From contig CP086569.2 of the NCBI GenBank assembly GCA_009914755.4, forward strand, positions 62,304,001 through 62,368,000: 64,000 nt of DNA, read 5' to 3'. A model generated the notes under the pieces. That model was not told the origin of the DNA. It worked only from the letters and a program-made list of their open reading frames with translations, and made no database searches. Position numbers and translations under genes: made by a program. Source of the stretch: the human T2T-CHM13v2.0 reference genome, Homo sapiens. Shown one piece after another: positions 21,575 to 25,868 of this stretch. The first letter of the stretch is position 1, and the number at the start of each line of letters is the position of its first letter.

Positions 21575-22512
21575 GTATGTTTCATGGCATAGTTTCATGC
21601 ATGTGGGCAAAAATGATAAAGATTACTTGACTGGGGTCAAATTATTCTAGAGAAGCCAAAATAGCACTTCCTTATTCTTACCATTGGAAGTTAATTGTCA
21701 GCTGAGACAACTGTGATACTGTCTGCTTGTGCAAATGGTTTCTTCTTTGTCCTTGCAACTATTCTTCATTCTAAATTTACTAGTTTGCTTAACAAGACTA
21801 ATTTCTAAGAACCTTATGATAATTCAGCAGTTTAGAATAATTTGGTCAGTGTGATTGTACAGTATTTCACTGAGTTAATGTATCACGGGTTACCTAACCT
21901 TGCCTGAATTTTGGACGCATAGGTTCTTTAGCACAGTGTTAGAGTGCTGTTTTGCAACCAGATAAGGAGCTTGCTGAAGAATGTCAATCAATATTGTGCT
22001 TCCTTCACTGAGGCCCTCTTGCTATGAAAATGTCAATTGGACTGAACAGTATGCTTAGAGACTTAGTCAACCAGTTGCAAATACTCTTAAGTAGGACTGA
22101 TTTAGAAGTTTATCCTACAGTAGTAACCATACTGTTATATTTTTGTGCCTATTATGTTTTTCTTATTTTCTTGAGATTAATTATCGGGAATGGGATTAAT
22201 AATCAAAATGCGCAAACGTTTTCGTGGTTCTTGATATGTACGTCTTGGCTATTTAAAGTGATTTCCTTTAATTGATTTTAGTTTTAATTATATATCTAGA
22301 TAGAGACTAGAGAATCTGTTGAGACAACTACTATTTATTTTTATTCTTTTTTTTGTCACCAAATGTATTTATTTTGCCCGAAAGTGGAGGCAGACAATTG
22401 CTACAATATTATTTATTGCAGATGCATAAAGTTTCCAGAAAAATCAACGTTTTTAATCGACTCCTTTTAAATGACTTATTTATTTTTAGAGTTATAGAAA
22501 CAGCAAATTTAA

Positions 22513-24218
22513 TCCATCTTGAATTAATTTTTGTATAAGGTATAAGGAAGGGATCCAGTTTCAGCTTTCTACATATGGCTAGCCAGTTTTCCCAGCACCA
22601 TTTATTAAATAGGGAATCCTTTCCCCATTGCTTGTTTTTCTTAGGTTTGTCAAAGATCAGATGGTTGTAGATATGTGGCGTTATTTCTGAGGCCTCTGTT
22701 CTGTTCCATTGATCTATATCTCTGTTTTGGTACCAGTACCATGCTGTTTTGGTTACTATAGCCTTGTAGTATAGTTTGAAGTCAGGTAGCATGATGCCTC
22801 CAGCTTTGTTCTTTTGGCATAGGATGGACTTGGTGATGCGGGCTCTTTTTTGGTTCCATATGAACTTTAAAGTAGTTTCTTCCAATTCTGTGAAGAAAGT
22901 CATTGGTAGCTTGATGGGGATGGCATTGAATCTATAAATTACCTTGGGCAGTATGGCCATTTTCATGATATTGATTCTTCCTACCCATGACCATGGAATG
23001 TTCTTCCATTTCTTTGTATCCTCTTTTATTTCACTGAGCAGTGGTTTGTAGTTCTCCTTGAAGTGGTCCTTCACATCCCTTGTAAGTTGGATTCCTAGGT
23101 ATTTTATTCTCTTTGAAGCAACTGTGAATGGGAGTTCACTCATGATTTGACTCTCTGTCTGTTATTGGTGTATAAGAATGCTTGTGATTTTTGTACATTG
23201 ATTTTGTATCCTGAGACTTTGCTGAAGTTGCTTATCAGCTTAAGGGGATTTTGGGCTGAGACAATGGGGTTTTCTAGATATACAATCATGTCATCTGCAA
23301 ATGGGGACAATTTGACTTCCTCTTTTCCTAATTGAATACCCTTTATTTCCTTCTCCTGCCTGATTGCCCTGGCCAGAACTTCCAACACTATGTCGAATAG
23401 GAGTGGTGAGAGAGGGCATCCCTGTCTTGTGCCAGTTTTCAAAGGGAATGCTTCCAGTTTTTGCCCATTCAGTATGATATTGGCTGTGGGTTTGTCATAG
23501 ATAGCTCTTATTATTTTGAGATACATCCCATCAATACCTAATTTATTGAGAGTTTTTAGCATGAAGGGTTGTTGAATTTTGTCAAAGGCCTTTTCTGCAT
23601 CTATTGAGATAATCATGTGGTTTTTGTCTTTGGTTCCGTTTATATGCTGGATTACATTTATTGATTTGCGTATACTGAACCAGCCTTGCATCCCAGGGAT
23701 GAAGCCCACTTGATCATGGTGGATAAGCTTTTTGATGTGCTGCTGGATTCGGTTTGCCAGTATTTTATTGAGGATTTTTGCATCAATGTTCATCAGGGAT
23801 ATTGGTCTAAAATTCTCTTTTTTGGTTGTGTCTCTGCCCGGCTTTGGTATCAGGATGATGCTGGCTTCATAAAATGAGTTAGGGAGGACTCCCTCTTTTT
23901 CTATTGATTGGAATAGTTTCAGAAGGAATGGTACCAGTTCCTCCTTGTACCTCTGGTAGAATTCTGCTGTGAATCCATCTGGTCCTGGACTCTTTTCGGT
24001 TGGTAAGCTATTGATTATTGCCACAATTTCAGAGCCTGTTATTGGTCTATTCAGAGATTCAACTTCTTCCTGGTTTAGTCTTGGGAGGGTGTATGTGTCG
24101 AGGAATTTATCCATTTCTTCTAGATTTTCTAGTTTATTTGCGTAGAGGTGTTTGTAGTATTCTCTGATTGTAGTTTGTATTTCTGTGGGATCGGTGGTGA
24201 TATCCCCTTTATCATTTA
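22513..24218 (-). mobile_element. Young L1PA element, INVERTED 5' segment (ORF2 from ~[14 protein letters not shown]… through …[10 protein letters not shown]), part of a twin-primed L1 insertion
   Basis: Minus-strand ORFs 23140-24264 and 22409-23143 translate to L1 ORF2 reverse transcriptase with very high similarity to L1PA/L1HS. Confidence 0.85.
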
Positions 24219-25366
24219 GACCTAAAACCATAAAAACCGTAGAAGAAAACCTAGGCATTACCATTCAGGACATAGGCATGGGCAAGGACTTCATGTCTAA
24301 AACACCAAAAGCAATGGCAACAAAAGCCAAAATTGACAAATGCGATCTAATTAAACTAAAGAGCTTCTGCACAGCAAAAGAAACTACTATCAGAGTGAAC
24401 AGACAACCTACAAAATAGGAGAAAATTTTCACAACCTACTCATCTGACAAAGAGCTAATATCCAGAATCTACAATGAACTCAAACAAATTTACAAGAAAA
24501 AAACAAACAACCCCATCAAAAAGTGGGCGAAGGACATGAACAGACACTTCTCAAAAGAAGACATTTATGCAGCCAAAAAACACATGAAAAAATGCTCACC
24601 ATCACTGGCCATCAGAGAAATGCAAATCAAAACCACAATGTGATACCATCTCACACCAGTTAGAATGGCAGTCATTAAAAAGTCAGGAAACAACAGTTAC
24701 TGGAGAGGATGTGGAGAAATAGGAACACTTTTACACAGTTGGTCGGACTGTAAACTAGTTCAACCATTGTGGAAGTCAGTGTGGCGATTCCTCAGGGATC
24801 TAGAACTAGAAATACCATTTGACCCAGCCATCCCATTACTGGGTATATACCCAAGGACTATAAATCATGCCGCTATAAAGACACATGCACACGTATGTTT
24901 ATAGCGGCAGTATTCACAATAGCAAAGACTTGGAACCAACCCAAATGTCCAACAATGATAGACTGGATTAAGAAAATGTGGCACATATACACCATGGAAT
25001 ACTATGCAGCCATAAAAAATGATGAGTTCATGTCCTTTGTAGGGACATGGATGAAATTGGAAATCCTCATTCTCAGTAAACTATCGCAAGAACAAAAAAC
25101 CAAACACCGCATGTTCTCACTCATAGGTGAGAATTGAACAATGAGAACACATGGACACAGGAAGGGGAACATCACACTCTGGGGACTGTTGTGGGGTGGG
25201 GGGAGGGGGAAGGATAGCTTTAGGAGATATACCTAATGCTAAATGACGAGTTAATGGGTGCAGCACACCAGCATGGCACATGTATACATATGTAACAAAC
25301 CTGCACATTGTGCACATGTACCCTAAAACTTAAAGTATAATAATAATAAAATAAAATAAAAAAAAA
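24219..25366 (+). mobile_element. Same L1PA insertion, DIRECT 3' segment (ORF2 from RPKTIKT… to end, 3'UTR, poly(A) ~25340-25366)
   Basis: Plus-strand translation [41 protein letters not shown]…; L1 coordinates are contiguous with the inverted segment apart from a ~12-nt gap; TSD aaacagcaaatttaa at 22498-22512 and 25364-25378. Confidence 0.85.
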
Positions 25367-25868
25367 CAGCAAATTTAAAATGTGACAAGAACATTCCTAG
25401 TTAATTCCCTTTCATTTTTTTAACAGCTTAATTGAAATATAATTCACATATCATATAATTCACCCATTTAAAGTATACAGTCAGTGGTTACTATATTCAC
25501 AGAATTGTACAACCATTGCTGCAATCAATTTTGTAACATTTTTATCATCCCTAAATGAAGCCCTGTACTCATTTGCAGTTGCTCCTCAACTCTCAGACCT
25601 AAGCAACAATTAATTCCCTTTTCTTCTTCATAAATTTGCCTATTCTGGACATTTCGTATAAATGGAATCTTGTAATATGTGGCCTTTTGTGTCTTCGTTC
25701 ACTTAGCGTAATGATTGTGAGATTCATTCATGTCGTAGCATAAATCAATACTTAATTCTTTTTTATGACTAATAATTCCAATGCATTAATGCATTTTATG
25801 TATCTACTCATTAGTTCATGGTCTGGTTATTATAAATAATGCTGCTATGAACATTTGTGTACAAGTTT

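What the first reader, a model, noticed from the sequence alone, without database searches (positions are those of the whole stretch)
22498..25378. Twin-primed (5'-inverted) young L1PA insertion with intact 15-bp target-site duplications in intron 5
L1 ORF2 is read on the minus strand over 22513-24218 and on the plus strand over 24219-25366. In L1 coordinates the two pieces abut, with only ~12 nt missing at the inversion junction (…SRWIK | RPKTIKT…). The whole structure is bracketed by the direct repeat aaacagcaaatttaa (22498-22512 and 25364-25378). The poly(A) is only at the plus end. This is the textbook product of twin priming during target-primed reverse transcription. The very high ORF2 identity to L1HS suggests a recent insertion (L1PA2-4 range).
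Basis: seen in the sequence. Interest (0 to 1): 0.5.

Follow-up and report, generated by a model that had tools for sequence, protein, structure and literature searches.

The report
Twin-primed L1PA3 insertion in VAMP7
This is an ordinary, ancient, dead copy of the human LINE-1 "jumping gene" whose front half was pasted in backwards by a well-known copying quirk called twin priming; it sits in intron 5 of VAMP7, is shared with bonobo and gorilla, and has no sign of a function.

Summary

- **Structure.** Window 22498-25378 is one 5'-inverted ("twin-primed") L1 insertion. A minus-strand arm (22513-24217) covers ORF2p codons 395-965. A plus-strand arm (24218-25363) covers codons 970-1275, the 3'UTR and an A-rich tail. 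The exact 15-nt repeat AAACAGCAAATTTAA brackets the whole.
- **Junctions.** The arms abut in L1 coordinates, with only 10-17 nt lost. Five nt (TTTAA) are shared between the target's 3' end and the L1 at the internal priming site. Two nt (TT) are shared at the inversion junction.
- **Single event.** Gibbon, five Old World monkeys and a strepsirrhine have a clean empty site with one copy of the 15-mer. Bonobo and gorilla carry the identical structure. So the insertion postdates the gibbon split and predates the gorilla split. Orangutan DNA could not be fetched.
- **Subfamily.** It is L1PA3: 59 of 64 family-diagnostic ORF2p positions match the L1Pa3 consensus, and each arm separately gives L1PA3.
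- **Context.** The host gene is VAMP7/SYBL1 and the site is intron 5.
- **Corrections.** The copy is millions of years old, shared across species and mutationally dead, so it is not recent. The first-strand nick site is non-canonical.

This is a textbook case of a known mechanism and of low interest.

The parts
22498..22512 (+). Left (5') target-site duplication, AAACAGCAAATTTAA
   Evidence: Exact copy of 25364-25378. It is present once at the empty orthologous site in gibbon, Old World monkeys and a strepsirrhine.
22508..22512 (+). TTTAA: 5-nt microhomology between the 3' end of the top-strand target DNA and the L1 RNA (5'-UUAAA, ORF2 nt 2891-2895). This is the inferred internal priming site.
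   Evidence: Uninterrupted L1 copies in the window read ...GATGGATTAAAGAC.... The inverted arm reads ...GATGGATTAAA followed by the reverse complement of the TSD, so the 5 nt belong to both.
22513..24217 (-). Inverted (internally primed) L1PA3 arm: ORF2 codons 395-965, including the reverse-transcriptase domain. It carries one human-lineage 4-nt deletion (frameshift) near 23155.
   Evidence: phmmer hit to PDB L1 ORF2p residues 395-965, E = 0. Pfam RVT_1, 3.6e-45. 28 of 31 diagnostic positions match L1Pa3 in the ancestral reconstruction. The deletion is window-private.
24216..24217 (.). TT: 2-nt microhomology at the inversion junction, where the two cDNA ends were joined
   Evidence: The antisense L1 sequence continues ...CATTTTT and the sense L1 sequence reads ...GTTAGACC. 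Both fit TT here. The junction is identical in bonobo and gorilla.
24218..25137 (+). Direct (poly(A)-primed) L1PA3 arm, coding part: ORF2 codons 970-1275 plus the stop codon. It has two in-frame stops (near 24416 and 24641) shared with bonobo and gorilla, and a human-lineage 1-nt deletion at 24852.
   Evidence: Hit to ORF2p residues 970-1188. tblastn against the L1Pa consensus peptides runs through residue 1275. 31 of 33 diagnostic positions match L1Pa3. Private changes are listed.
25138..25338 (+). L1 3' UTR of the direct arm
   Evidence: Aligns with the 3' ends of the other L1PA copies in the window. Sequence read.
25339..25363 (+). A-rich tail (ATAATAATAAAATAAAATAAAAAAA); the only poly(A) of the element
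   Evidence: Read directly. The length varies slightly in bonobo and gorilla.
25364..25378 (+). Right (3') target-site duplication, AAACAGCAAATTTAA
   Evidence: Gorilla has one substitution (AACCAGC...).

Best explanation
This is a single retrotransposition of one L1PA3 RNA by target-primed reverse transcription with twin priming. It happened in an ancestor of human, Pan and gorilla, after the gibbon lineage split off.

Inferred steps:
1. L1 endonuclease nicked the bottom strand at 5'-TGTTT/CTAT-3'. The T-rich 3' end primed cDNA synthesis on the poly(A) tail, and that cDNA extended to ORF2 nt ~2906-2908.
2. The top strand was nicked 15 nt (or fewer) downstream. Its 3' end (...ATTTAA-3') annealed by 5 nt to 5'-UUAAA-3' in the same RNA, 10 nt upstream of where the first cDNA ended.
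3. That second primer drove a second cDNA back to ORF2 nt ~1181.
4. The two cDNA ends were joined at a 2-nt microhomology (TT). Gap filling produced the TSDs.

The product is a 2.85-kb, 5'-truncated and 5'-inverted element that lacked ORF1 and the 5'UTR from the start. It has since decayed neutrally inside VAMP7 intron 5.

What is shown: the anatomy, the single-event origin, the subfamily and the phylogenetic distribution. What is inferred: the order of the biochemical steps.
For: - Two arms of opposite orientation with adjacent L1 coordinates: ORF2p residues 395-965 (minus) and 970 to the end (plus). Only 10-17 nt are lost.
- One exact 15-nt TSD pair, far beyond chance.
- Poly(A) only at the plus end, and no 3' end or tail on the inverted arm.
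- A 5-nt match between the target 3' end and the L1 at the internal priming site, and a 2-nt match at the inner junction.
- Empty sites holding a single 15-mer in Hylobates moloch, Rhinopithecus, Macaca fascicularis, three further Old World monkey assemblies and a strepsirrhine. These equal the pre-insertion site reconstructed from the window.
- The identical structure and junctions in bonobo and gorilla. Species behind the accessions are confirmed.
- Both arms independently classify as L1Pa3 (28/31 and 31/33 diagnostic positions; 59/64 overall).
- The pattern matches the published definition of twin priming (PMC2837659) and its commonest class: 18% of germline L1 insertions are 5'-inverted, and 46% of those have cDNA ends within 20 bp of each other (PMC12016303).
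Against: - The first-strand nick site (TGTTT/CT) is not one of the canonical motifs (TTTT/A, TTTT/G, TTTC/A). About 37% of germline L1 insertions also lack them.
- The mechanism cannot be observed for an event this old. Only its product is seen.
- Orangutan DNA could not be retrieved, so the older bound on the date rests on gibbon alone.
Confidence: 0.93

Rival explanations
1. A conventional 5'-truncated L1PA3 (ORF2 nt ~1181 to the end) inserted first. Later its 5' 1.7 kb was inverted in place by a DNA rearrangement, such as microhomology-mediated repair, before the human-gorilla ancestor.
For: The final sequence would look similar, and microhomologies of 2-5 nt are also typical of repair junctions. 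No genome sampled dates from the interval between insertion and the gorilla split, so an intermediate cannot be excluded.
Against: One breakpoint would have to fall exactly at the L1/TSD boundary. A separate event would also be needed to mimic a structure that L1 makes directly in about 18-22% of new insertions. All three filled species have identical junctions.
Confidence: 0.04
2. Two different L1PA3 RNA molecules were used at one staggered break. One was primed on its poly(A) by the bottom strand. The other was primed internally by the top strand, a dual-priming or template-switch variant.
For: Dual priming has been proposed as a theoretical alternative to twin priming (PMC2837659). Both arms are L1Pa3, so two RNAs of the same family cannot be told apart.
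Against: The end of the first cDNA and the start of the second lie only 10-17 nt apart on the L1 map. One RNA predicts this. With two independent RNAs it would happen in under about 1% of cases (roughly 40 of 6000 positions; my estimate).
Confidence: 0.02
3. Two independent L1 insertions in opposite orientation landed next to, or into, each other.
For: The window is L1-rich, with at least two other large L1PA copies and several old fragments.
Against: The inverted arm ends inside ORF2 (codon 965) with no 3'UTR or poly(A), which TPRT does not produce. There is only one TSD pair around the whole structure. Every outgroup lacks both arms together and keeps one intact 15-mer. The L1 coordinates abut.
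Confidence: 0.01

Closest known systems
Twin-primed (5'-inverted) L1 insertions, as proposed by Ostertag and Kazazian 2001 and restated in PMC2837659 and PMC12016303
   Same: Two fragments of one L1 lie in opposite orientation inside a single TSD pair. Poly(A) is present only on the non-inverted part. There is a small internal deletion, with the cDNA ends within 20 bp on the L1 map. Microhomology is present at the internal priming site and is weaker at the inner junction.
   Different: Nothing essential differs. The first-strand nick site is non-canonical (TGTTT/CT). Both arms are rather long: 1.7 kb inverted and 1.15 kb direct, against germline medians of 751 and 571 bp.
L1PA3 subfamily of primate LINE-1
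   Same: ORF2p residues match the L1Pa3 consensus at 59 of 64 family-diagnostic positions, including the L1Pa3-only P1097. Presence in African apes and absence in gibbon fit a family from the young end of the L1Pa7-L1Pa3 series, dated 30-10 MYA.
   Different: Only ORF2 codons 395-1275 and the 3'UTR are present, so the ORF1 and 5'UTR characters used to define the family cannot be scored. A few residues (V504, H914, K921, M1268) differ from the consensus already in the ancestral reconstruction.
Conventional 5'-truncated L1 insertions (standard TPRT)
   Same: TSDs, a 3' poly(A) tail, 5' truncation, and an intronic location in AT-rich DNA.
   Different: The 5' 60% of the insert is in the opposite orientation.

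Membership tests
Twin-primed L1 insertion | Two fragments of the same L1 in opposite orientation, inverted part at the 5' side | tested here: met
   Minus arm = ORF2p 395-965; plus arm = ORF2p 970 to the end plus the 3'UTR.
Twin-primed L1 insertion | A single pair of target-site duplications bounding both fragments, generated by one insertion event | tested here: met
   Exact 15-mer at both ends. One copy of it, and no L1, at the orthologous site in gibbon, five Old World monkeys and a strepsirrhine.
Twin-primed L1 insertion | Poly(A) tail only at the 3' end of the non-inverted fragment; the inverted fragment starts inside the L1 | tested here: met
   A-rich tail at 25339-25363. The left end abuts ORF2 codon 965 with no T-run.
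Twin-primed L1 insertion | Adjacent L1 coordinates of the two fragments, with a small internal deletion or duplication | tested here: met
   10-17 nt (GACTTAAATG plus or minus the microhomologies) are missing relative to uninterrupted L1 copies in the same window.
Twin-primed L1 insertion | Complementarity between the top-strand 3' overhang and the L1 RNA at the internal priming site | tested here: met
   TTTAA (22508-22512) is shared by the TSD end and the L1 sequence.
Twin-primed L1 insertion | L1 endonuclease consensus (TTTT/A-like) at the first-strand nick | tested here: not met
   The bottom strand reads 5'-TGTTT/CTAT-3' in the window and in the gibbon empty site. This is not one of TTTT/A, TTTT/G or TTTC/A. 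The motif is not strictly defining, since it is absent from about 37% of germline L1 insertions.
L1PA3 subfamily | Family-diagnostic ORF2p residues | tested here: met
   59/64 for L1Pa3, against 53 for L1Pa2, 50 for L1Pa4, 43 for L1Pa1 and 42/63 for L1Pa5. Each arm separately is best with L1Pa3.
L1PA3 subfamily | Nucleotide-level match to the L1PA3 consensus, including the 3'UTR (RepeatMasker/Dfam assignment) | not testable with these tools
   No Dfam or Repbase consensus is available here. Only peptide consensuses from PMC7449397 were used.
L1PA3 subfamily | Age and phylogenetic distribution consistent with the family | tested here: met
   Present in human-lineage sequence, bonobo and gorilla; absent in gibbon and Old World monkeys. 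L1Pa7-L1Pa3 are dated 30-10 MYA.
VAMP7/SYBL1 intron 5 location | Lies between exon 5 (aa 115-144) and exon 6 (aa 145-167) of the eight-exon gene | tested here: met
   tblastn places these exons at 21484-~21573 and 40807-40875 on the plus strand. The protein is identified as VAMP7. Exon numbering comes from PMC3123573.

The most novel reading that the evidence does not exclude
The sense-oriented 3' arm of this African-ape-specific L1PA3 (24218-25363) might influence VAMP7 splicing. It is reverse-complementary to the 3' end of the antisense L1PA5 in intron 6 (51684-52828; 91.5% over 1.15 kb). The two flank exon 6, which is the exon skipped in the VAMP7b and VAMP7j isoforms. Pairing in the pre-mRNA, or use of the L1's sense-strand polyadenylation signals, could then alter exon 5/6 skipping or transcript length in African apes relative to gibbons and monkeys. 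Nothing here tests this. The partners lie 15 kb and 11 kb from the exon.
Probability: 0.03. Interest if true: 0.35.

Novelty: already known. Interest (0 to 1): 0.08.

Why it matters
It matters very little beyond correct annotation. The two oppositely oriented L1PA3 blocks in VAMP7 intron 5 should be counted as one insertion event, not two. That affects counts of L1 events, estimates of insertion length and TSD-based analyses. The locus is a clean teaching example: single-base junctions, both microhomologies, and empty and filled orthologous sites across primates. It also provides a homoplasy-free marker grouping human, Pan and gorilla to the exclusion of gibbons.

Tried and rejected
- **Metagenome scan.** I scanned metagenome contigs for the left flank plus TSD, to catch empty or filled alleles in host contamination. 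There were 0 hits.
- **PDB search of concatenated frames.** A PDB search with concatenated non-repeat open frames, meant to find the host gene, gave no hit, because I pasted only the first ~6 kb. The gene was recognised by eye and verified.
- **Contig look-ups that failed.** Short isoforms P0097 and P0106 are not on record.
- **Orangutan.** The locus (GCA_028885625.3) was listed, but its DNA timed out in four look-ups. Only its CDS span could be used: 47.1 kb, close to gibbon's 48.1 kb (empty) and well below gorilla's 51.4 kb (filled). This hints at an empty site and does not prove it.
- **Primer paper.** The L1PA primer paper (PMC12432230) covers only the 5'UTR, ORF1 and early ORF2, which this copy lacks.
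- **Original papers.** The twin-priming paper (PMC311219) and the L1PA age paper (PMC1356131) are not held. Secondary open-access sources were used instead.
- **3'UTR diagnostics.** I did not rely on remembered 3'UTR diagnostic bases for the subfamily call.
- **Rejected explanations.** Two independent insertions, two-RNA priming and post-insertion inversion were considered and rejected; see the rivals.
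Full report
**1. What is in the sequence**

The 15-mer AAACAGCAAATTTAA occurs at 22498-22512 and at 25364-25378. It occurs nowhere else in the 64-kb window, even with one mismatch allowed. Shuffled sequence gives 0.02 occurrences on average.

Between the two copies lie two L1 pieces.
- The minus strand of 22513-24218 translates, with one frameshift, into human LINE-1 ORF2p residues 395-965 (PDB 8uw3_A numbering, E = 0) and contains the reverse-transcriptase domain.
- The plus strand from 24219 starts at residue 970 (RPKTIKT) and runs through the ORF2 stop at 25135-25137. 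The 3'UTR and an A-rich tail follow.

No T-run or L1 3' end lies at the left side.

**2. Junctions at single-base resolution**

Two other L1PA copies in the window run uninterrupted through the relevant region: 51684-~57800 and 33358-~39500, both on the minus strand. They give the local L1 sense sequence ...CAAGATGGATTAAAGACTTAAATGTTAGACCTAAAACC.... Three points follow.
- The outer end of the inverted arm matches L1 through ...GATGGATTAAA. Its last five bases (TTTAA on the plus strand, 22508-22512) are also the last five bases of the left TSD.
- The direct arm matches L1 from (TT)AGACC. The TT at 24216-24217 also fits the antisense continuation of the inverted arm.
- The L1 bases absent from the insert are therefore GACTTAAATG (10 nt), or up to 17 nt if the shared bases are credited to the target or to the other arm.

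In ORF2 nucleotide numbering the arms are 1181/1183-2895 and 2906/2908 to the end. With ORF2 beginning near nt 1990 (my memory of L1.3/L1RP), the arms are about 3170-4885 and about 4897 onward.

**3. Where the window comes from**

One open frame among the non-repeat ORFs spelled the N-terminus of VAMP7. tblastn placed all seven coding exons on the plus strand, and the protein database confirmed VAMP7. Published work describes SYBL1/VAMP7 as an eight-exon gene with the start codon in exon 2 and residues 1-114 encoded by exons 1-4 (PMC3123573).

Over about 54 kb the window differs by 0.86% from bonobo, 1.22% from gorilla, 3.0% from Hylobates and about 6% from macaque. It is therefore human-lineage sequence.

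**4. One event, and when**

Using the exact VAMP7 protein I fetched the whole gene, introns included, from other primates. Species behind the assembly accessions were checked in the literature for bonobo, gorilla, Hylobates moloch and the T2T macaque. The remaining species names are from memory.

| Species / assembly | State of the orthologous site |
|---|---|
| Hylobates moloch | Empty |
| Rhinopithecus bieti | Empty |
| Macaca fascicularis | Empty |
| Three further Old World monkey assemblies | Empty |
| A strepsirrhine assembly | Empty |
| Bonobo | Filled, 98.5-99% identical to the window |
| Gorilla | Filled, about 97.8% identical to the window |
| Two New World monkeys | Rearranged, no L1 |
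| Orangutan | DNA not retrieved |

At the empty sites the two flanks overlap by exactly 15 nt. The site reads ...TTAGAGTTA[T/C]AG AAACAGCAAATTTAA AATGTGACAAG..., identical to the pre-insertion site reconstructed from the window. Bonobo and gorilla carry the same structure with base-identical outer and inner junctions.

Both arms therefore arrived together, the 15-mer is a true target-site duplication, and the event falls after the gibbon split and before the gorilla split.

Orangutan DNA timed out four times. Its VAMP7 coding span is 47.1 kb, against 48.1 kb in gibbon and 51.4-52.7 kb in the filled species. That hints at an empty site and is no more than a hint.

**5. Subfamily and state of decay**

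Consensus ORF2 peptides for L1Pa1-L1Pa7 are available in the supplement of PMC7449397. A majority-rule reconstruction from human, bonobo and gorilla matches L1Pa3 best.

| Family | Diagnostic positions matched |
|---|---|
| L1Pa3 | 59/64 |
| L1Pa2 | 53/64 |
| L1Pa4 | 50/64 |
| L1Pa1 | 43/64 |
| L1Pa5 | 42/63 |

- The matches include P1097, which is found only in the L1Pa3 consensus.
- The inverted and direct arms separately also give L1Pa3 (28/31 and 31/33).
- Overall ORF2p identity to L1Pa3 is 96.4% for the reconstruction and 94.4% for the window copy. Identity to L1Pa1 (L1HS) is 94.6% and 93.0%.
- Two stop codons in the direct arm are shared by all three species.
- A 4-nt deletion near 23155 and a 1-nt deletion at 24852 are specific to the human lineage.
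- L1Pa7-L1Pa3 are dated to about 30-10 MYA, which agrees with the phylogenetic bracket.

'L1PA2-4' was a good call. 'Recent' was not.

**6. Mechanism**

The anatomy is what the twin-priming variant of target-primed reverse transcription predicts (description in PMC2837659).
1. The bottom strand is nicked at the left edge of the future TSD, here 5'-TGTTT/CTAT-3'. Its T-rich end primes on the poly(A) tail.
2. Before this cDNA is finished, the top strand is nicked at the right edge. Its 3' end (...ATTTAA-3') pairs with UUAAA inside the same RNA and primes a second cDNA of opposite orientation.
3. The first cDNA stops 10 nt short of that site.
4. The two free cDNA ends are joined, here at TT, and the staggered nicks are filled to give the TSDs.

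Long-read surveys find a 5' inversion in 18% of germline and 22% of somatic L1 insertions. In 46% of those the two cDNA ends lie within 20 bp on the L1 map, and TSDs have a median of 13 bp (PMC12016303). This element belongs to the commonest class.

The only slightly atypical feature is the non-canonical first-strand nick site, a property shared by roughly a third of germline insertions. Because TTTAA is ambiguous, the top-strand nick may lie at ATTT/AA, which resembles the endonuclease consensus. That is inference.

**7. Rivals**

- **Two independent insertions.** Excluded by the single TSD pair, by the lack of a 3' end on the inverted arm, and by empty sites that lack both arms.
- **Two RNAs at one break.** Cannot be excluded formally, but would rarely give cDNA ends 10-17 nt apart.
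- **Later in-place inversion of a colinear insert.** Cannot be excluded without an intermediate. It needs an extra event with a breakpoint exactly at the L1/TSD boundary.

**8. Verdict**

The finding is confirmed and correctly interpreted. It is a fixed, dead, twin-primed L1PA3 in VAMP7 intron 5. This is a known kind of element produced by a known mechanism, and nothing suggests a function.

The only speculative angle concerns the sense-oriented arm. It forms a long inverted repeat with an antisense L1PA5 across exon 6, and exon 6 is alternatively skipped. I rate that idea at about 3%.

Noticed in passing
window 28257-29583 (minus strand): An SVA retrotransposon in VAMP7 intron 5. It has (GAGAGG)n, the reverse complement of the CCTCTC hexamer, at 29505-29582, a 40-bp VNTR at 28781-29161, a T-rich end near 28257-28285, and flanking CATTTTCTTTT repeats. 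It is present in bonobo and cleanly absent in gorilla, gibbon, macaque and Rhinopithecus, so it is a human-Pan-shared insertion.
   Followed up: partly
window 51684-~57800 (minus strand, intron 6): A full-length-looking L1 (ORF2 codon 1 at 55726; GC-rich 5' end at 57-58 kb). It fits L1Pa5 best (55/63 diagnostic positions). It is also present in gibbon and Old World monkeys.
   Followed up: partly
window 33358-~39500 (minus strand, intron 5): A second full-length-looking L1 (ORF2 codon 1 at 37390). It fits L1Pa7 best among L1Pa1-7; older families were not tested. It is present in Old and New World monkeys.
   Followed up: partly
L002:14983-15165 and L004:14603-14770 (New World monkeys), orthologous to window 22218-26401: In Saimiri and Sapajus about 4 kb of the human-lineage sequence around the insertion site, including the target site itself, is replaced by about 180 bp. 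Part of that aligns in reverse orientation to window 25414-25580. This is a lineage-specific deletion/inversion.
   Followed up: no
window 24218-25363 versus 51684-52828 and 33358-34502: The plus-strand arm of the L1PA3 is reverse-complementary to the 3' ends of the two antisense L1s (91.5% and 87% over about 1.15 kb). The pair with the intron-6 copy brackets exon 6 (40807-40875), which is skipped in the VAMP7b and VAMP7j isoforms. No evidence of any effect.
   Followed up: no
window 2001-3000: A GC-rich block (54.6% against 39% for the window overall) with long GC-rich open frames. It is probably the CpG-island promoter and non-coding exon 1 of VAMP7, about 7.5 kb upstream of the ATG exon at 10448.
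   Followed up: no
window 16605-16607 and 21574-21579: In tblastn the residues next to two exon edges differ from the remembered VAMP7 sequence (S for N49; GM for DL at 145-146). These are most likely alignments running a few bases past the splice sites into intron, not real differences.
   Followed up: no
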